In this document: positions 25,106-38,139 of the stretch, piece after piece
Position numbering within the stretch: the first letter of the stretch is position 1
Layout of the letters: every line of letters begins with the position of its first letter
DNA from: Craspedostauros australis
Taxonomy: Eukaryota
Length of the DNA stretch: 64,000 bases
Direction: 5' to 3'
Assembly (NCBI GenBank): GCA_030167865.1
Contig: JALAGF010006190.1
Coordinates: forward strand, 1-64,000
Made by a program: the position numbers and the translations under genes
Notes under the pieces: generated by a model
Told to the model about the DNA's origin: nothing
The model's input: the letters and a program-made list of their open reading frames with translations, nothing else
Database searches by the model: none

Positions 25106-26388
25106 ATGGTGGGTAACGCTTCATGAATCGAGTGCCATGGCTTGCAGATCGACTGAGTGGCTGACTGAGTGGCGATAGAAGGTGGATGGAGGGATGCTCC
25201 ATGCCCGCCTCACGTGGGCCAACGCGAAGAGCAAGAATCAGCAAACCAACCAACGGACCGGCCGACCAACCAACTGAGCAATCAGCCAGTTGGCCGAACA
25301 GAACCCAACAACCAATAGACCGACACCAAGACACGTCTGCTTTCCGCGATCCCTGCCAATTCCAACGTCCCTCTCCATGGGCTTTCCAAAAGAGGTCCAT
25401 TGGGGGTGGGACCCCGACAAAGGACACTGCGACATCCGCCACGTTGATGACGAGGATGGCCGTTTGTTTGCCGGACGCGGAGCGACCAGGCTGATGGGAA
25501 GATGGGTTGGTTTAGCATGGTCTGGTTTCGGTCGGTTTGATGTTTGCTGCTTGTGTTCGTTGGTCATCACGCCATCTGTCGCGAACCTGGCCGTGGTGGA
25601 TGGTCGATGCGGGGCCGTTGGCACGTTTCGATCGAGTCGCTGGCTTCGCGCTGGTCACCAAGATCGCGACAGTGAGACGTATTTTCATTCTCCGCTCGTT
25701 GCTGCGTCTCTCAAGAGAAGGGCCATAACACGGCATACTGATGTGCATGTTCATGCCTGTGTCCATGCTCACTGACTACGTTCACATTCACATCTCTCAC
25801 CAACATGCAATCTTCTTCGCATTCGTTGCTGCTGATCGTGGCCTGCACACAACACGATGGAATTCACATGGACACCACTGCCAACAACAACCACACCCGC
25901 GACGACGATGACTATGCCTCGCGCTTCTGCTCCACCCTACTTCCACTTCTGCTGCTCTACAGGCCACCGGAGTCGTCGCCGATAGCGAAGTGTCTGACAC
26001 TTTCCAGCAATTCAAGCTCCAAGCGGAGGGCTACAAGCTCCGCTACTACATCTACAAGATCGAGAACAAGAAGACCATCGTCATCGAAAAGTCCGGAGAC
26101 CGCACACAAACGTACGACGACTTCGCCGCCGAGCTCCCAGAGAACGAGGGTCGCTACGGACTCATCGACCTGGACTTCACCACCAAGGATGGACGCCCCA
26201 CCTCCAAGCTTGTGCTGCTGACATGGAACCCAGATTCCGCCAGCATCCGTGACAAAATGCTTTACAGTGGCTCCAAGGAGGCCATGAAGAGTGCTGTGTC
26301 AGGCGTCGGTATCCACATCAATGCCACCGACGCATCCGAGCTTGACTTCGAGAGCACCATCCTGCCAGCTGTGCAGAAGTTCACTTAA
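25106..26388 (+). CDS. COF: Actin-depolymerising factor/cofilin (ATG-only exon 25106-25108, then 25963-26388)
   Basis: M|ATGVVAD..., RYYIYKI, YDDFAAELPENEGRYG, WNPDSASIRDKMLYSGSK, NATDASEL. ATG|GTGGGT donor and CTACAG acceptor give a phase-0 intron. The first exon is inferred. Confidence 0.92.
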
Positions 26389-29116: not shown

Positions 29117-29858
29117 GCTGCTGCTGTCTGCTCCATCGATAGTAACAAAGAAATTCAATCACACTCAAACAACCCCAGATCACGTCTTCTCTTTGACCTA
29201 TCATAGGTGTCTATGTGCCTCATGGAGCCTGTATGTTGAGACCTATTGTACTACGTGATATTGTAGAATACTTGTGTTCTATTCCTGGCCGCGTTGCCGA
29301 TGATCAGGTATCGTCACAGCCAGCGTTCTGGATGATCTGTGCCTTCCCTGGTCGAACTCCGCAGAAGCGGTTTTTCTTTCCTTTTTCGCGATCCCAACAA
29401 AGAGGAGAAGAAAGCGAGAACCCTGTGGAAGGTGTCGGCAGCAACTTTCAATGAGGTCTTCGTGTTCCCAAACCTGCCCCAAAGTTCCAATGGATCAGCC
29501 ACACAGAGATCTGGGGATGAAGACGGCGTCGGCGACGACAACAACAACAGCAGCAGAAGGAGCAACAGCAGCAGCAGAAGGAACAACGACAACAACGGCA
29601 ATAGGCAACCTATTGGTGGGTCATAACCATCAGCGAGCATCAATCTGCACATTGGCATTCTGCAAGTGCTCGACCACATCGGCAGGTGTTGGAATCTCTC
29701 GACTCTCCGACGGCTGCTTTGCTGCTCTACTGCTCTGCACGCCACACGTGCTCTTGCTCTCTCCATCCCCATCTCTGCCACCCTATCTCCGTTCCTCCTC
29801 GATTGCCTCATACGCTAGTTCAACCAACACCCCTGCATACTCCACCCCATACAGACTT

Positions 29859-32800
29859 ATGTCGATTCGACAAGCATCCAAAGAAGGAGCATCGCTAGTT
29901 TTCGGCGCGGCAGTGTGGTGGATTCCCAGGATCTTGAGGAAGATATCTTTCACGATCTCCCAAAGAATCCGTCTCCGCTCCAGCCTCTGGGTCTCTCTCT
30001 GCTTCTGCATTCTTCTTTTCGTCGCCGCAGGTGCTTCACCGTTCGTTACACCAGCAACAACAGCAGCTTCGCCCACCACCTCGGCATTGGCTTCTACTGG
30101 CACTTCTGCTTCTATCGCAGTCCGCACGACAATGAGGGCAACCGCTGCTTTTCCATGGTCCCAACGTGCAACAACTCGTACGGGTAGCACGGCCGCATCC
30201 TGGTTGGTGCACCACACATCAACACTCGGAGTGACAAGTGAGGGATCAGCACGTCATAGCATTGGCGGAGCAGCAGCTCGCTGTTTGGCATTCCAGTCCC
30301 CAGTGTCGAGACATCGTCCTCCAGGCTCCGATCTAAGCCTGGCCTATCCACATCTGAGGATCCATCCGTGCCGTACGACAGGAGCTTCACTGCGCATGGC
30401 CATCGGCAACTCCGAGCCATCATTCTCGACCATCTCATCTCGAAGATGGTATCGCAACAGCCCTGAGGCTGATGTCGCCGTCGAGCAGGCCGGCGGTTTT
30501 CATGATGTATCCACCGCCATCAAGCTGCTGCCCGATGCAGCTGCCGCCACTGCGGATGGAACATTCGTGGACGCAAGGCCAGATAAGCGTTCCTTGTTCC
30601 AAGTCACTGCACCGTACGAACCAACTGGCGACCAACCAGAGGCCATCGAGCAGCTCGTCCGTCAGGTGCAACGCGGTGACAAGTACAGCGTGCTTCGAGG
30701 AATCACAGGCACCGGGAAGACGTTGGTGATGGCGCACCTCATTGCAAAGCTCCAACGCAAGACGTTGGTCTTGTGTCACAACAAGACTCTGGCAGCACAA
30801 TTGGCCAGGGAGCTGCGTTCATTCTTCAAGAAGAACCGCGTCGAACTGTTCGTGTCGTACTACAACCACTACGTGCCTGAAGCCTTCAAAGAGGCCACCG
30901 GCAAGTACATCGCCAAGAAGTCATCCGTCAATGAGGAACTGGATGCGCTGCGGCATCTCGCAACCAACTCGTTGTTGCAGCATGACGATGTAGTCGTCGT
31001 GGCATCCGTCAGCTGCATTTACGGGCTGGGAATGCCAGAGGAATATCTCAAGGCCAGTGCTCGGTGGGACGTAGGAGACATATTCGAGGATTTGGTTGAG
31101 ATTGAAGATACGCTGCAAACTATGCTGTACATCAATGCCGGTAACGTCGACGAAGAGGTCCTTGATGATGACAGCTTCGACACCGGCAAGCGCAAACGAC
31201 GAAACAAAGCGCGAGGCCAATCCAGAACGTCATCCAACAAGGAGGAGATGGTGCGCGGCCGGTACGAGCTCGATACGAATCCTCAAAACGGCGTGTCCAC
31301 CCTCTCTCTGTGGCCGCCATCGGAGGCGTATCCCCTACGGATCTTGTTGCAGCCAGTGTCAAGATCCCTTACATCGCCGGTGTCTCAAGAAGATGCTGAC
31401 GATCGTGTTCAGATCATTTCTATCGGACGTGGGCAAATGACGGGGCTTGTGGAAGTTGATCATGTCATCGTCTTTCCCACCAAGCACCATGTCACGACGT
31501 CCCAAGAGGGCTTGGATGAGACCTGCAGACGCATCGAAGACGAACTCAAGGACCGTGAGAAGGTGTTGCGCGATGAAGGAAGGAAAGAAGAGGCCGACAG
31601 GCTGCAACATCGTGTCATCCAAGACTTGGCCATGATCCGCGATCTTGGATTTTGTGCTGGCATTGAAAACTACAGCCGTCATCTGGCGTTGCGAGAGGCA
31701 GGTGAAGCACCCGCCTGTCTACTGGACTACTTCTCCAAAAAATGGGCCACAGATAAAAATGGGCACAACGATGCAGATGCTCAAGCCAGCACCGAAATCA
31801 CCAATGCCACCAACAACGGCGAGAAGAACAAGGGTGATGACTGGCTGCTTTTGGTCGACGAATCTCACGTCACGCTCCCCCAGCTGAAGGCCATGTACCG
31901 AGGCGACCAGGCACGCAAGAAGATGCTGGTGAAACACGGCTACCGGCTACCCTCCTGCCTGGATAACAGACCGTTGCAGGAGCGAGAATTCTTCCAGCGC
32001 ATCCGTCAGGGAGTCTTCGTCAGCGCCACACCTTCGAAGCAGGAACTGCAAATGTCAACTGCCGATCCCGTGGACATGCTCATCCGTCCAACCTACGTGT
32101 GCGATCCTTCCATCGAAGTTCGCCCATCAGGTCCCGATCAGCTGGAGGACCTCTTGCGAGAAGTTAAGCTTCGCAGGGGACGAGGAGAACGCACCCTCGT
32201 CATGGCCCTCACGAAACAAGACGCCGAGGACTATTCGAAGTACTTGGGCCAGCATGATGTGCTCTCGACTTACATCCACTCGGGTCTCAACACCCAGGAA
32301 CGGTCGGACGCGTTGAAGGCGCTTCAATTGGGTCGCGTGGACTGCTTGGTCGGTGTCAACCTGCTGCGAGAAGGCCTGGATTTGCCGCAGGTCTCGCTCG
32401 TGGCCATTCTCAACGCCGACAGCCAGGGATTCTTGCGCTCTGAGACTGCCATGTTGCAAACAGTCGGAAGAGCAGCGCGGAACGTGAACGGGGCCGCGAT
32501 CATGTATGCCAACAAGGTGACGTCCGCCATGCAGGAATGCATCAACATCACAAAATACAGGCGCGAGCTCCAACTTCGGTACAACGAAGAGCATGGAACA
32601 AAGATGCGTTCAACGACAGGGTCGACCATGCAATCAATCTTCGACGTCTTGAAAGACCAGATCGAGGCACAGAAGTCGGTCGCGACTGCGAGGAATGCAC
32701 CAAATGGAGCCATCGGCGGTGGCAGCACCAGCAGCAGTGCCTCATCACGCGGAAGCAATGGGGTTGTTGCTGCGACAGGCACGATGCAGATCGCCGTTGG

Positions 32801-34790
32801 TGCGGATGATCCTGCGAACATCGAAACGGACCACATCCCGGCAAAACCTGGCGTGTACTTTTGGAAGGGTGGAGATGGTAGCACCCTCTACATCGGCAAG
32901 GCGAAGAAGCTTCGAAATCGAGTCAAGTCATATCTGGCATCAGGTGCGAAGCATTCCCGACGCATCCAGGTCATGATCCAAAAGGCCACGAATGTGGAAT
33001 TCATCGTGACACCCTCCGATCGAGATGCCTTGCTGTTGGAATCGAACCTGATCAAGCACCATCAGCCACCGTACAACGTGCTTCTTCGTGACGATGCATC
33101 CTATCCCTACATCTGCGCATCGTTGGAAGATGAGTACCCTCGGTTTCACATCGTGCCGACGAAGGCGAACGGTGATGCGTCATCAGTAAACAAGTACTTT
33201 GGACCGTATCCTCACCATTCAGAGGTGTCGCAAATCCTGCAACGCATCGAGGACAAGTACAACCTTCGGACGCTGGCACTGCAGGCCCGGCATGGATCCC
33301 TCAGCAAGACGAAGTACAGAATGCAATTCGAGACCGCCTTGCAAGAAGTGTTCGAAATCGACGCAAATGGCGATCTTGCCCCCAGCAGCGGATGTGACGT
33401 GAGCGCAAGATCCTTGGCGGTTGCGCAACTAGAATACCAAGAAGCGTCGCAGCTCTTCGATTCGAAATACAACGAGAACCGAGATGTCGTCGCTATCCAG
33501 CCGTTCAATGACCAAACAGAAGCAGTCGTCCAGGTGATGCAGCTGCGAGATGGACTCATCGCTGGCAAATTTGCGTATCGGTGCCAGCTGTCGGCAGGAA
33601 TGGACGCCGAGGAGGATTATTCGGCAGTCCTGCAAACGGTGTTGGAACGCCAGCACTATCCGTCAGGAGGCGACATGCCCGCAGGCAGCTTTTCGTTTCT
33701 GCCGAATGAAATCCTGCTGCAATATCCACTGCCGGATGTGTCCGAACTGCGTCTCATAATCCGGACAGCACGGCGGAGCATGAAGGCCAGAAGGAGTAGC
33801 AACAGCAACGATGGCGAGATCGTGGGTGCTGATGGCCAGGTGAATGGCTCTCCGGCGCCGAAGAAGCGTACCTCCCTTGCCATTCGGACGCCAGTTACCC
33901 GCGGTCCCCGGAAGAGCACAGACCAACGCGCGATGAAGCTGGCCATCGAGAACGCCCAAGAAGAGGCCAGGCAGAACGAGCTTGGTTCGGTACGAGGAGC
34001 GACGAAGACGTCGTTGGATGGAACGGCAGTGACCGAACTCCAATCCATGCTGAATATCGAGCGTCCCATCAAACGGATCGAATGCTACGACATCAGTCAC
34101 ACCCAAGGCAGCGCCAGCGTGGGATCCTGCGTGGCATTCGTGGACGGACGACCGTCACCGAAGTTGTACCGCCAATTCCACATCAAGACGGTGAAGGGCA
34201 TTGACGATTATGCATCACTGGAAGAGGTGATTGGACGTCGCTTGCGCCATGCCTTTGGCAACACGGGTAGCGGTCGATCGATGGACCGCAGCGATGATGA
34301 TTGGGCCGCCCCTGATCTGATCGTGATCGATGGTGGACGTGGCCAGCTCAATGCAGCCGTGAAGGGTATGGCCAAGGTGGGTGTAGCACCGTACCTGCCA
34401 ACCAGCAGAAATGTCGTTACCAATGGTGCTACCACCACTGCAAGTGCTGCTGCTGCTGCTGCTGACCATGTACGTGATGATGGTGTTCTTGATTGCGACG
34501 ATAACACATCTTTGCACATCGTCGAGGAAGAGTACATCCCCATACCTGTTGGTGTTGACCCGCATGGCCATTGCGGTACCGATTCGGAAGCAGACCTGCG
34601 CCCGACGATCCCCGTCATCTCGTTGGCCAAGAATCAAGAAGAGGTGTTTTCGCTGACATCAAGCGCACCCATCAATGATAGGCCAGACTCTCCGGCGCTC
34701 CTCTTGCTTCGGTCCATCCGTGATGAAAGCCACCGATTCGCTCTGAAGAATCACCGCATCCTTCGATCCAAGTTGAATGGGTTGCGATGA
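29859..34790 (+). CDS. uvrB-uvrC: UvrB-UvrC fusion protein (bacterial-type excinuclease ABC subunits B and C) with an N-terminal presequence-like extension
   Basis: Single open frame (29451-34790; true start uncertain, ATG 29859 preferred). UvrB part about 30597-32600: PTGDQPEAI, GITGTGKT, HNKTLAAQL, FVSYY, DESH, GYRLPSCLDNRPL, NLLREGLDLP, QTVGRAARN. UvrC part about 32830-34790: PGVY...LYIGKAKKLRNRVKSY, LESNLIK..QPPYN, RIECYDISH, DDYASL, PDLIVIDGGRGQL, RDESHRFA. Confidence 0.93.
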   Translation: MSIRQASKEGASLVFGAAVWWIPRILRKISFTISQRIRLRSSLWVSLCFCILLFVAAGASPFVTPATTAASPTTSALASTGTSASIAVRTTMRATAAFPWSQRATTRTGSTAASWLVHHTSTLGVTSEGSARHSIGGAAARCLAFQSPVSRHRPPGSDLSLAYPHLRIHPCRTTGASLRMAIGNSEPSFSTISSRRWYRNSPEADVAVEQAGGFHDVSTAIKLLPDAAAATADGTFVDARPDKRSLFQVTAPYEPTGDQPEAIEQLVRQVQRGDKYSVLRGITGTGKTLVMAHLIAKLQRKTLVLCHNKTLAAQLARELRSFFKKNRVELFVSYYNHYVPEAFKEATGKYIAKKSSVNEELDALRHLATNSLLQHDDVVVVASVSCIYGLGMPEEYLKASARWDVGDIFEDLVEIEDTLQTMLYINAGNVDEEVLDDDSFDTGKRKRRNKARGQSRTSSNKEEMVRGRYELDTNPQNGVSTLSLWPPSEAYPLRILLQPVSRSLTSPVSQEDADDRVQIISIGRGQMTGLVEVDHVIVFPTKHHVTTSQEGLDETCRRIEDELKDREKVLRDEGRKEEADRLQHRVIQDLAMIRDLGFCAGIENYSRHLALREAGEAPACLLDYFSKKWATDKNGHNDADAQASTEITNATNNGEKNKGDDWLLLVDESHVTLPQLKAMYRGDQARKKMLVKHGYRLPSCLDNRPLQEREFFQRIRQGVFVSATPSKQELQMSTADPVDMLIRPTYVCDPSIEVRPSGPDQLEDLLREVKLRRGRGERTLVMALTKQDAEDYSKYLGQHDVLSTYIHSGLNTQERSDALKALQLGRVDCLVGVNLLREGLDLPQVSLVAILNADSQGFLRSETAMLQTVGRAARNVNGAAIMYANKVTSAMQECINITKYRRELQLRYNEEHGTKMRSTTGSTMQSIFDVLKDQIEAQKSVATARNAPNGAIGGGSTSSSASSRGSNGVVAATGTMQIAVGADDPANIETDHIPAKPGVYFWKGGDGSTLYIGKAKKLRNRVKSYLASGAKHSRRIQVMIQKATNVEFIVTPSDRDALLLESNLIKHHQPPYNVLLRDDASYPYICASLEDEYPRFHIVPTKANGDASSVNKYFGPYPHHSEVSQILQRIEDKYNLRTLALQARHGSLSKTKYRMQFETALQEVFEIDANGDLAPSSGCDVSARSLAVAQLEYQEASQLFDSKYNENRDVVAIQPFNDQTEAVVQVMQLRDGLIAGKFAYRCQLSAGMDAEEDYSAVLQTVLERQHYPSGGDMPAGSFSFLPNEILLQYPLPDVSELRLIIRTARRSMKARRSSNSNDGEIVGADGQVNGSPAPKKRTSLAIRTPVTRGPRKSTDQRAMKLAIENAQEEARQNELGSVRGATKTSLDGTAVTELQSMLNIERPIKRIECYDISHTQGSASVGSCVAFVDGRPSPKLYRQFHIKTVKGIDDYASLEEVIGRRLRHAFGNTGSGRSMDRSDDDWAAPDLIVIDGGRGQLNAAVKGMAKVGVAPYLPTSRNVVTNGATTTASAAAAAADHVRDDGVLDCDDNTSLHIVEEEYIPIPVGVDPHGHCGTDSEADLRPTIPVISLAKNQEEVFSLTSSAPINDRPDSPALLLLRSIRDESHRFALKNHRILRSKLNGLR

Positions 34791-36193
34791 GTTTCTCCAG
34801 AGGGTGCAGTTGCAGGTGCAGGTGCAGGTGCAGACGATCGTCACAGACGTGAGTTGAGCAGATGAGGAAGTGAGGGAGCCAAGAAGTCAATGATTAAGAG
34901 TAGAGTCGTCGGGTATGTACTTTCGGTTTCCCCAGATGAGATAATCGAAGAGTAGGCGGAGCATGACGCGCGGCAGTACTGGTAGCTCGTAGTTGCATAC
35001 TCGATGGTTGAGCACAAGGGAGACGACCTTTTGATGCCGACCGGAAGAAGTACTCGTGCGTTTGGTGCAGATAGTTTGGCAAAGTCGGCGTGTCTGGAGC
35101 GCAATCCCTGGAAAATCTCACCCACAAAAATCAACGTCGGATTGCGCTCTCTCTCTATCTATCTTGGCATTGGAAGATGGGAGGGTTGTCGTGAGGTGGT
35201 GGATGGTGGTGGATGGTGATGGTGATGGGCGACATGATGTGTGATGGATGGATGGCATTTTCTCCGCATCTTCTTCTCCTTTTCTCCATTTGCCGGCAAT
35301 TGTGTTGTCCGGCTGTGGTGCTGAAAAAGTGAGGCGAAGCTCCATTTTCTGCTTGCGACAGGCGCTGTGACACAACAACTATCAATGAAGTGGTGTGATG
35401 TTAAGTGTGCTCCAGCTCATTTATGGTGGTGCGCTTCAAGTGACTTCCGCGGTTTGGTTGGGAACTTTGCGACAGCATGGCACAACCGATGGCAGAAACG
35501 TCATCTGTCGGAGGCACATTGGCCTCCTGACTTTTGGACCCTTCCAGACCCCGCAACGACACACATCACAGCACCACCAGACCCGACACACCAACCAACC
35601 AAGGCAATCAAGGAACCAACCAACCACACACAACAACGCAACACACAGATGCCCCAAAATTGTGCGTCGTTGTGTGTTCCTGTCTGACAACCCGAAGGCA
35701 AACAATGACGACAACACTCTTCTTGCGCCTACACCACCAAAATGGAGGCGAAGAGAAGTCGACAGCAGAGCAACGACACTGACAGCACTGACAACAGTCA
35801 CACAACAACAAGAACAACAGTCACACAACAGCAGCAGAAGCAGAAGCAGAAGCAGAAACAAACCCACAAACCAACAAAGACACAAAAACAGAACCAGTCA
35901 GTCATCAGACGCCCTTCTCTTTGTCGATCCCATTTGCACCATCGCACTTGAGCAACACCACACCCAACACACACATCCCCCCGTTACTGAAGAGGAAGAC
36001 AGGCACCTGCGTTCACCTCTCCATTCATCCCATCATCCATTCATCCATTCATTCCAACCAGAGCGCAAATACAAGCACAAATACAAGCACAACACAGACA
36101 CCGTACGGACGCGATACGAACATTGAACGAACACTTCACTCGTACAAGCACGGTAAACACTGCTCTACTCTATTCTACAACTACCAATATAGT

Positions 36194-38139
36194 ATGTCAC
36201 CCAAGCCACAAGCAGATGGCGAAGACATCGCCACGAACTACGGAAGCCTCAATTCAGATGGCGATGCAAGCGCAAGCGAGACTTCGCCCTTGAGCAGAAA
36301 GTCATCAGCAGTCTCCGCCAGGAAGGCCCATCCCACCCTCATCAAGACCCAAACGAGCTTCTGGGAGGACGCTGTCAACTTCCGCGAGGGTAGCATCCCC
36401 CATTCCTCGATCTTGGCCATCAGCATTGGTATCATCTGCGGAGTTGCCGCATGGATCTACTACACCATCCTCTTCTGGGTGCTGGAGTACGTGTGGCATG
36501 ATCTGCCGCAGCAGATCGTCGTCGGCGTTTGGCCGGAATGGGCCCACATCCTCTGGATCCCCCTCGTCGGCTTCCTCATGGCCCTCGGCGTTGGACTCAC
36601 CGTCACGTACATGGGAGAGCCAGGCGATCTGCCGTCCACCATCAAGTGCGTGCACGAGGATGCCTACGTCGCGATGGACCACGTCATGCCCATGGTGTGC
36701 GCATCGCAATTCAGTATCGTCGGCGGTGGCTCTTTGGGTCCCGAGGCGCCTTTGGTCGGTACGTTGTCGATGGTTCGATCGTTTCGTCCGTTTGTGCGCT
36801 TCATTCTGCGCTTCATCCTACGCTACGTTCTGCTCTGCATCTGTGGCAAATTCATGTCGTCGTTGATGGCGGCATTTCATGTGACCGTCATTGTCCTTGC
36901 CCAGCATTGAACGCATGGAGCACTGTCATTACAGTGCCACGCATCACAGCATGTCACGCCATCACTATCACGCCATAGCTCATACTCTATGCCCTTTGCC
37001 ATCATCATTTCTCATTCTTCCTCAAATTCGGTCGGACCCATTTTCCATGAATGTGCGTCGTGATAACTCTTGAAATTCGAATTACAGCCATCTGCGCCGC
37101 ACTCGGTGGATATGTCTCACGCACCATCTTCAAGCAAACCCAACGCAACCTCATCCGCAAGCACACCCTCATGGGCATGTCCAGCGCATTGGCCGCCTTC
37201 TTCGGCTGCCCGCTCGGTGGTAGTCTCTTCGCCCTCGAGGTCAACTCGCGCTTCGGAGTGGAGTACTTTGAGCACACCATCGAAAGCATCTTCGCCGGAG
37301 AGATCTGCCTCATCGTCTTCCGCGGGCTCGCCCAGCTCCCCATCGAACCAATCTGGGAGATCGTGCCCGACAAGCTCACCGGAAGCGACCCCATGGCCTG
37401 CATCCACGGCATGCTGCTGGGACTCGTCGGTGCCCTCGTCGCCTACTGCTTCGCCAAGATGCACGCATCGGTCATGAAATTCTTTGCCATGCTCAACCTC
37501 ACGCCAAGCCGATCCGACCTGGCCGTCCCGCGGGCGCTGCTGGGATCCGTCGTCATTATCGGTCTCGGCATGATCATCCCGCACACCATGTTCTGGGGAG
37601 AGTTTGAGTTCGATACAATCGCCACCCTGGCGCCTGCCAGCACCCTCGCGCACATCTGGCCAACCGACGGCCTCATCGGTTTCGAGCTCAGCAACACAAC
37701 AGCAATGCCATCCTTCATCGTTGGCGTCACCAAGCTCATTGCCATCTCCTTCACGGTCGCCGGAGGATACCGCGGTGGTTACATCTTCCCAGCCATGGCA
37801 GCCGGAGCCGCGTTGGGAAATGCTCTCCACCTCTCCGTCTTCCCCTTCATCCCACAGCAGCTCTGCTGCTTGTGCATGGCCGGTGCCATCAACGTGGCGA
37901 TCACACGCACATCGATCGCCACCACCATGATCCTCGTGTACCTCGCCGGTGAGCAGAATGCCATGTCCGCCGTCCTCGCCGCGTCCCTCGTCAGTCTGTT
38001 CGCCACGGGATACATGCCATTCATCAAGACCCAGATCGCACGCGCGGACATTGATCGTAGCTTGTACCACATCGATGAGGAGGACGAAGATGACGATGAT
38101 GATGCGGAAGAGCAAGGCGAGAAGGCCCAGCTGGTTTGA
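36194..38139 (+). CDS. CLC: CLC-family chloride channel/transporter, prokaryote-like, without CBS domains (exons 36194-36758, 37088-38139)
   Basis: GGSLGPEAPLV|AIC, AAFFGCPLGGSLFALE, GGYRGGYIFP and many hydrophobic helices. Phase-1 GTACGT...CAG intron. Confidence 0.9.

What the first reader, a model, noticed from the sequence alone, without database searches (positions are those of the whole stretch)
32600..34790. The UvrBC fusion appears to have lost both UVR interaction motifs, the UvrC Cys-rich region and the HhH tail
Seen: after YNEEHG the UvrB half has no recognisable C-terminal UVR motif (the FExAAxxRD type). The UvrC half lacks the four-Cys cluster after GPY and lacks its own UVR motif, and it stops shortly after RDESHRFA without the helix-hairpin-helix pair. 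Established: UvrB and UvrC dock through their UVR coiled coils, and the HhH domain aids 5' incision. Inference: covalent fusion made the docking motifs dispensable, and the incision mechanism may differ from the bacterial one.
Basis: partly seen in the sequence, partly recalled or inferred. Interest (0 to 1): 0.7.

Follow-up and report, generated by a model that had tools for sequence, protein, structure and literature searches.

The report
Trimmed single-chain algal UvrB-UvrC repair enzyme
An alga's nuclear gene joins two bacterial DNA-repair proteins inherited from the chloroplast's cyanobacterial ancestor into one chain that keeps every cutting and motor residue but has shed the docking, iron-sulfur and DNA-gripping parts, in a genome where the usual damage-finding partner was not found.

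Summary
Largely confirmed and family-wide. One open frame (29304-34790) encodes UvrB fused to UvrC. In 89 algal fusions (diatoms, Triparma, Rhodosorus, Chromera, Pycnococcus) the HhH tail and an intact UVR core occur in 0 of 89 and the four-Cys motif in 0 of 85; no downstream exon restores HhH. Correction: UvrC's UVR is truncated, not erased; an in-register vestige persists in 40 of 72. All catalytic residues of both nucleases are invariant in 74 of 74. Beyond the finding: algal UvrBs are sister to cyanobacteria (99/96), 33 of 51 leaders look plastid-type, the UvrA-binding domain 2 has diverged, and this genome gave no UvrA but holds an Mfd without its UvrB-homology module and a PcrA/UvrD. Fusion tracks UVR loss among algae (stand-alone algal UvrBs keep it, 5 of 8), but unfused bacterial proteins also lose UVR, Cys or HhH, so fusion is not required. 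Best reading: a plastid, UvrA-independent excision nuclease that cuts pre-opened DNA, probably at stalled transcription bubbles; chemistry conserved, loading different. Untested biochemically. The scan reported this fusion before in two other diatom genomes. No paper describing it was found in 10 searches.

The parts
29859..34790 (+). Single-exon-compatible ORF for the UvrB-UvrC fusion, from the first ATG (later in-frame ATGs at 30132 and 30396); open frame begins at 29304
   Evidence: only UvrB/UvrC locus found in the assembly
29859..30596 (+). N-terminal leader: hydrophobic stretch at about 29988-30038, then Ser/Thr-rich, acid-poor segment; candidate bipartite plastid presequence, start codon uncertain
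   Evidence: 35% S+T, 2 acidic residues; my simple signal-plus-small-x-small-F/W rule does not catch this leader but catches 33 of 51 orthologues (3.3 expected)
30597..32678 (+). UvrB helicase core: Walker A Lys 30717, beta-hairpin about 30855-30930, DESH 31857-31868, motif VI 32457-32480
   Evidence: TIGR00631 positions 2-606; PDB UvrB E 4.7e-163; conservation
31062..31470 (+). UvrB domain 2 (UvrA-binding in bacteria), diverged and carrying insertions; fold probably kept
   Evidence: no UvrB_inter hit here, weak hits in 6 of 15 members against 105-118 bits in bacterial UvrBs; folds at high confidence in the Rhodosorus model
32634..32829 (+). Conserved S-I-F-D helix, then a variable linker standing where UvrB's UVR would be
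   Evidence: Phe invariant; spacing 47-121 aa in 60 members; low pLDDT
32847..33077 (+). GIY-YIG endonuclease domain (3' incision): Tyr 32856, Tyr 32889, Arg 32919, Tyr 32931, Glu 33039, Asn 33075
   Evidence: Pfam PF01541; 1yd6 and 1ycz matches; 74 of 74 invariant
33201..33461 (+). Helical bundle: GPY, helix 5, short replacement helix where the Cys/Fe-S loop is deleted (junction near 33296), helix 6, shortened helix 7, UVR vestige YQEAS (33435-33449), helix 8 reduced to one turn
33477..33770 (+). Inactive central RNase H-like domain (RNase H1)
   Evidence: PF22920; absent altogether in Rhodosorus and P0260
34041..34733 (+). RNase H endonuclease domain (5' incision): Asp 34089, Asp 34206, Asp 34329, His 34731; low-complexity insert 34410-34586
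   Evidence: PF08459; 2nrt, 2nrr, 8b0q; 74 of 74 invariant; insert disordered
34734..34790 (+). 18-residue basic tail and stop codon; no helix-hairpin-helix pair

Best explanation
The gene encodes a plastid-stroma, single-chain excision nuclease that descends from the uvrB and uvrC genes of the cyanobacterial endosymbiont. Shown: both halves keep all ATPase, hairpin and nuclease catalytic residues; the parts lost are those that dock UvrC on UvrB (UVR pair), bind Fe-S, grip DNA at the 5' side (HhH) and, by sequence divergence, bind UvrA. Inferred: the linker holds UvrC at the lesion, replacing UVR docking and the affinity that HhH supplies; since UvrA seems absent, UvrB loads on DNA that is already open, most likely the bubble of a plastid RNA polymerase stalled at a bulky lesion and acted on by the plastid Mfd; GIY-YIG cuts 3', RNase H cuts 5', and the PcrA/UvrD homologue releases the oligonucleotide.
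For: Invariant catalytic and motor residues, 74 of 74 or 73 of 74 where one row has a gap; confident folds of all kept domains. Algal UvrBs monophyletic 100/99 and sister to cyanobacteria 99/96 under LG+C20; UvrC halves attach between cyanobacteria and the other bacteria (SH-aLRT 93, quick tree). Signal-plus-F/W leaders in 33 of 51 orthologues. No UvrA in three searches of this assembly, controls ringing in 13-14 of 14 genomes. Mfd present without UvrB_inter or any N-terminal UvrB-like module and with a hydrophobic leader; PcrA/UvrD with a similar leader. Literature: HhH-less D. radiodurans UvrC keeps 3' incision and partial 5' incision (PMC10085695, passages); UvrBC finds lesions without UvrA and cuts only bubble or pre-nicked DNA (PMC5814901, section 28).
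Against: No biochemical or localisation data. This gene's own leader is atypical and fails my rule. UvrA absence was tested in one fragmented assembly (6734 contigs) only. Bacterial UvrBC does not cut damaged duplex without UvrA (PMC10085695 section 27). The bacterial tree sample was the best 80 of 596 hits, 27 used, with no alphaproteobacterium, and algal branches are long. No link between this protein and Mfd or RNA polymerase was tested. Flowering plants keep the Mfd homologue without UvrB or UvrC (PMC6981420, passage), so Mfd need not serve this pathway.
Confidence: 0.52

Rival explanations
1. A structure-selective organellar nuclease: the same enzyme cuts bubbles, R-loops, D-loops or stalled forks regardless of lesions, serving recombination surveillance or transcription-replication conflicts rather than excision repair.
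For: The lesion-finding partner UvrA was not found; loss of HhH, Cys loop and, in Rhodosorus and P0260, the RNase H1 platform removes parts proposed to keep UvrC closed (PMC10085695 section 25); related algal forms carry only RNase H plus UvrB, one with HRDC.
Against: The UvrB hairpin keeps Tyr/Phe, Pro-Glu, Lys and Arg-His positions in 74 of 74, as expected for lesion verification; both nucleases are kept together across red, green and secondary-plastid lineages.
Confidence: 0.22
2. Global repair with a replacement loader: a missed or unrecognisably diverged UvrA, or a new partner binding the remodelled domain 2 (conserved WPP motif), loads the fusion on closed duplex, so the pathway is otherwise bacterial.
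For: Domain 2 still folds and holds a conserved W-P-P (69, 67, 70 of 74); the assembly is fragmented.
Against: Three UvrA profiles found only ABC-transporter tails of 22-31 bits; the second UvrA-binding module, that of Mfd, is missing as well; WPP may be purely structural.
Confidence: 0.13
3. A mainly one-sided nickase, as Cho is in E. coli (recalled): the 3' cut is efficient, the HhH-less 5' cut is weak, and nick translation or exonuclease finishes repair.
For: HhH deletion lowers 5' incision in D. radiodurans.
Against: The RNase H catalytic residues are invariant in 74 of 74, and the reversed fusions keep only this domain.
Confidence: 0.08
4. The enzyme works in mitochondria or the nucleus rather than the plastid.
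For: This gene's leader is ambiguous and some orthologue models have no signal peptide (18 of 51 fail the rule).
Against: Cyanobacterial ancestry; named homologues come only from plastid-bearing lineages.
Confidence: 0.07
5. Gene-model artefact: a downstream exon adds HhH, or the fusion is a mis-assembly.
For: No RNA run of this organism was available.
Against: 89 full-length fusions from many independent sources share the joint and the end point; no HhH downstream.
Confidence: 0.01

Closest known systems
Bacterial UvrB (B. caldotenax 1d9z/2fdc) and UvrC (T. maritima 1ycz, 2nrt; D. radiodurans 8b0q) of the UvrABC excinuclease
   Same: Helicase core, beta-hairpin, GIY-YIG, beta-sheet motif, helical bundle, inactive RNase H1 and active RNase H2, with all catalytic residues.
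   Different: One polypeptide; no UVR on UvrB, truncated UVR on UvrC, no Cys/Fe-S loop, no HhH pair, diverged domain 2, N-terminal leader, nuclear gene in a eukaryote, no UvrA found.
UvrA-independent UvrBC complex of E. coli / B. caldotenax proteins (PMC5814901)
   Same: UvrB and UvrC acting as a unit without UvrA.
   Different: There a non-covalent UVR-mediated side route with no shown excision; here a fixed architecture kept across algal lineages.
Stand-alone algal UvrB (Cyanidiococcus, Porphyridium, Agarophyton, Cladosiphon) and reversed RNaseH-UvrB fusions (Prymnesium, Aureoumbra)
   Same: Same cyanobacteria-derived clade.
   Different: Stand-alone forms mostly keep UVR and have an unassigned N-terminal domain; reversed forms lack GIY-YIG and UVR.
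Reduced UvrC of Patescibacteria
   Same: HhH missing in 3 of 4 genomes looked at, Cys missing in at least one.
   Different: Unfused, keep a UVR match (20.8-35.9 bits), prokaryotic.

Membership tests
UvrB (TIGR00631/NF003673) | Superfamily-2 helicase motifs and beta-hairpin | tested here: met
UvrB (TIGR00631/NF003673) | Whole-protein score above curated cut-off | tested here: not met
   693 of 743 and 686 of 750 bits
UvrB (TIGR00631/NF003673) | C-terminal UVR motif | tested here: not met
UvrB (TIGR00631/NF003673) | UvrA-binding domain 2 | tested here: inconclusive
   no Pfam hit here, weak in 6 of 15 members, fold kept in the Rhodosorus model
UvrC (TIGR00194) | GIY-YIG domain with catalytic Tyr, Arg, Glu, Asn | tested here: met
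UvrC (TIGR00194) | RNase H domain with Asp-Asp-His triad | tested here: met
   whole-frame score 313 against cut-off 285
UvrC (TIGR00194) | Cys-rich Fe-S motif | tested here: not met
   0 of 85; clean deletion
UvrC (TIGR00194) | UVR helix pair | tested here: not met
   intact core 0 of 89; vestige only
UvrC (TIGR00194) | C-terminal (HhH)2 | tested here: not met
   0 of 89
UvrABC excinuclease system | UvrA in the same genome | tested here: not met
   fragmented assembly, one genome
UvrABC excinuclease system | Lesion-dependent dual incision | not testable with these tools
   needs purified protein
Nucleus-encoded plastid proteins of secondary red plastids | Signal peptide followed by a Phe-led transit peptide | tested here: inconclusive
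   33 of 51 orthologues pass a simple rule, this gene does not; no dedicated predictor available

The most novel reading that the evidence does not exclude
Many algae run bacterial-type nucleotide excision repair in the plastid with one polypeptide and no UvrA: a cyanobacteria-derived UvrBC chain that makes both cuts at lesions handed over in transcription bubbles, with Mfd and UvrD as the only helpers. This would be excision repair in an organelle, in eukaryotes said to lack UvrABC genes, and a natural UvrA-free dual-incision enzyme.
Probability: 0.42. Interest if true: 0.88.

Novelty: new variant of a known kind. Interest (0 to 1): 0.7.

Why it matters
Reviews state that excision repair seems absent from organelles and that eukaryotes lack UvrABC genes (PMC6981420 and PMC11228841, passages read). 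A conserved, catalytically intact UvrB-UvrC chain across red, green and secondary-plastid algae contradicts the general statement and offers an explanation for the orphan plastid Mfd. It also makes two open questions of bacterial repair directly testable with one purified protein: whether UvrBC can excise damage without UvrA, and whether UVR docking, the Fe-S cluster and HhH do more than recruit and hold the nuclease.

Tried and rejected
Complex prediction of the UvrB half with the UvrC half of the Rhodosorus protein gave no verdict (score 0.16, mark 0.32); it is used neither way. Expression: no RNA holder listed; one run of guessed kind gave a 360-base contig identical to 34541-34900, which may be DNA, so no conclusion. 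The profile search of representatives failed for length and was rerun with the single Rhodosorus protein. A homologue search with Porphyridium UvrB returned only bacterial UvrBs among the 119 other rows, so whether stand-alone algal UvrBs have a separate UvrC partner stays open. The N-terminal domain of stand-alone algal UvrB got no atlas hit. Per-domain profile scores for UVR, Cys and HhH were not obtained; whole-length profile coverage and Pfam were used. Rejected: 'domain 2 is deleted' (it folds); 'GIY-YIG lost in distant members', suggested by precomputed Pfam lists (15 of 15 match on rescan); 'two independent fusions prove the UVR rule' (they are sisters). Paper searches for the fusion or for algal UvrB/UvrC and for mechanism listed nothing describing it; PMC4624840 and PMC7705064 mention only uvrB/uvrC-motif proteins (passages). 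The library lacks most subscription journals, and supplements were not read; gene tables of algal genome papers may list these genes.

Full report
What is there. The interval is the 3' half of one open frame, 29304-34790 on the + strand, 1828 codons from stop to stop. Pfam and NCBIfam read it as UvrB followed by UvrC, and solved UvrB and UvrC domains are the best matches by sequence and by fold. The genome is eukaryotic (65.9 Mb, 6734 contigs; neighbours include a cofilin and a CLC channel); the nearest named relatives are from diatoms. It is the only UvrB and the only UvrC locus found in the assembly.

The observation. The ORF has no UVR, HHH or UvrB_inter match at E up to 10, whereas three bacterial controls carry them. 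From 259 proteins held I took the 89 with Walker A and both RNase H motifs (this set includes near-identical cluster mates). A whole-length profile from 20 bacterial UvrCs covered the HhH positions in 19 of 19 held-out bacteria and 0 of 89 fusions; tails after RDExH were 13-97 residues against 70-84; the four-Cys pattern was in 0 of 85 against 25 of 39; the intact UVR core in 0 of 89 against 37 of 39; one fusion had a GIG/GVG in its tail. For UvrB, with 15 cluster mates dropped, the UVR positions were covered in 0 of 74 fusions and 98% of 40 held-out bacteria. A spliced HhH is not supported: no signal in six frames of 34791-36300, one weak HHH_5 match on another contig only, and orthologues from transcript sets stop at the same place.

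One correction. The middle of UvrC was trimmed, not removed. Aligned with cyanobacterial and other UvrCs, the fusions lack about 19 residues exactly where the Cys loop sits, keep helices 5 and 6, and have helix 7 shortened by about 7 residues; Pycnococcus and P0107 keep a recognisable second helix, diatoms keep only a turn. A vestige of the F-E-x-A-A turn is found in 40 of 72 fusions, mostly 61-66 residues after GPY, against 1.0 expected by shuffling; the bacterial offset is 89 or 92, which the two deletions account for. I defined this pattern after seeing the alignment, and most rows are related diatoms. The model of the UvrC half (mean pLDDT 83, pTM 0.75) shows the bundle with a short replacement helix, a 13-residue helix 7 and a 4-residue remnant of helix 8. 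The cyanobacterial proteins had 3 or 4 Cys, UVR and a full tail in 5 of 5, so the losses came later.

What was kept. In 74 fusions the Walker A Lys, DESH, the hairpin Pro-Glu, Lys and Arg-His, the GIY-YIG Tyr, Tyr, Arg, Tyr, Glu and Asn and the RNase H Asp, Asp, Asp and His are invariant; motif VI is invariant in 73 with one gap. The enzyme is therefore very likely active, with bacterial chemistry. The linker that replaces UvrB's UVR varies from 47 to 121 residues in 60 members and is predicted disordered, after a short conserved helix.

Origin and place of work. Named fusions come from diatoms, Triparma, the red alga Rhodosorus, Chromera and the green alga Pycnococcus. With 17 algal rows and 27 of 80 bacterial and archaeal loci, IQ-TREE under LG+C20 puts all algal UvrBs on one branch (100/99), sister to five cyanobacteria (99/96), with the forward fusions a clade (99/96) (FastTree on 78 rows agrees). 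The UvrC halves form one branch that joins between cyanobacteria and the other bacteria (SH-aLRT 93, quick tree, two long rows). Limits: long algal branches, a sample chosen by likeness, no alphaproteobacterium, no AU test. Of 51 orthologues with a leader of 50 residues or more, 33 have a hydrophobic stretch followed by small-x-small-Phe/Trp (3.3 expected); this gene's leader has a late hydrophobic stretch and a Ser/Thr-rich segment but fails that rule from any of three ATGs. Reading the pattern as a plastid signal of secondary algae rests on my own knowledge.

Partners. Three UvrA profiles found nothing beyond 22-31-bit ABC tails in this assembly, while controls rang in 13 or 14 of 14 genomes. 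Domain 2 of UvrB, which binds UvrA in bacteria (recalled), gives no Pfam match here and weak ones in 6 of 15 members against 105-118 bits in bacterial UvrBs, yet folds well in the Rhodosorus model. The genome has an Mfd matching model positions 338-903, with no UvrB_inter module and a hydrophobic leader, and a PcrA/UvrD with a similar leader. Both UvrA-binding modules are thus eroded or gone. UvrA was not searched in other algae.

Did fusion cause the losses? Among algae the pattern fits: of 8 stand-alone UvrBs (named: Cyanidiococcus, Porphyridium, Agarophyton, Cladosiphon) 5 have UVR above cut-off, 2 weakly, 1 not; 3 reversed RNaseH-UvrB fusions (named: Prymnesium, Aureoumbra) have none. But the two kinds of fusion are sisters (97/90), so this may be one event. 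Prompted by earlier notes of this scan on Patescibacteria, I checked: 3 of 4 unfused UvrCs from such genomes lack HhH and one lacks the Cys residues, though all 4 keep a UVR match; three unfused bacterial-type UvrBs picked for short tails lack UVR, gene ends unchecked. Fusion is a plausible cause for the UVR loss and not needed for the others.

How it most likely works. In D. radiodurans, removing HhH leaves 3' incision intact and lowers 5' incision, through weaker DNA binding, and UVR serves recruitment (PMC10085695: abstract, passages, section 25 and the first part of section 27). UvrBC finds lesions without UvrA but cuts only DNA with a bubble or a prior 3' nick (PMC5814901: abstract and section 28). 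A covalent tether supplies recruitment and local concentration, and a stalled bacterial-type RNA polymerase supplies a bubble. I infer a plastid pathway of polymerase and Mfd, single-chain UvrBC, and UvrD (0.52). The tether, the bubble loading and the link to Mfd are inferences; a lesion-blind structure nuclease (0.22) and a replacement loader (0.13) remain open.

Novelty. Databases label these proteins excinuclease subunit B, so the genes are visible but the architecture is not described in what I could search. Two papers state that excision repair seems absent from organelles, with no UvrA, B or C in flowering plants (PMC6981420, passage), and that all eukaryotes lack UvrABC genes (PMC11228841, passage). 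This scan reported the same fusion in two other diatom genomes; my reading was set before that look-up. Verdict: a real, ancient, family-wide trimming; a new variant of a known system; interest 0.70.

Noticed in passing
P0267 (Prymnesium parvum), P0297 (Aureoumbra), P0299: Reversed fusion: UvrC RNase H domain before UvrB, no GIY-YIG, no UVR; Prymnesium adds a C-terminal HRDC domain and what looks by eye like an eroded HhH after the RNase H.
   Followed up: partly
P0263, P0269, P0276, P0289, P0293, P0302, P0268, P0274: Stand-alone algal UvrBs with long N-terminal extensions; several share a small unassigned domain of about 100 residues (no Pfam, no atlas hit).
   Followed up: partly
P0114 (Rhodosorus), P0115, P0260: These fusions also lack the whole central RNase H1 domain, giving complete enzymes of 994-1137 residues; good candidates for expression.
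   Followed up: partly
L020:937-4347 (-), G000 contig C6292: Mfd homologue with hydrophobic leader, lacking the N-terminal UvrB-homology module.
   Followed up: partly
L125:1-3630 (-), G000 contig C9: PcrA/UvrD homologue with a signal-like leader followed by Ala-Phe.
   Followed up: partly
L130:475-2763, L129:1450-3777: Patescibacteria UvrC frames with extras: about 340 residues before GIY-YIG in one, a GNAT domain inside the RNase H region in the other.
   Followed up: no
window 25915-26385 (+) and 36194-38136 (+): Neighbouring genes: a cofilin/ADF and a CLC channel split by an apparent intron; no functional link seen.
   Followed up: no
P0292: A bacterial-type UvrB interrupted by an intein with an HTH domain.
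   Followed up: no
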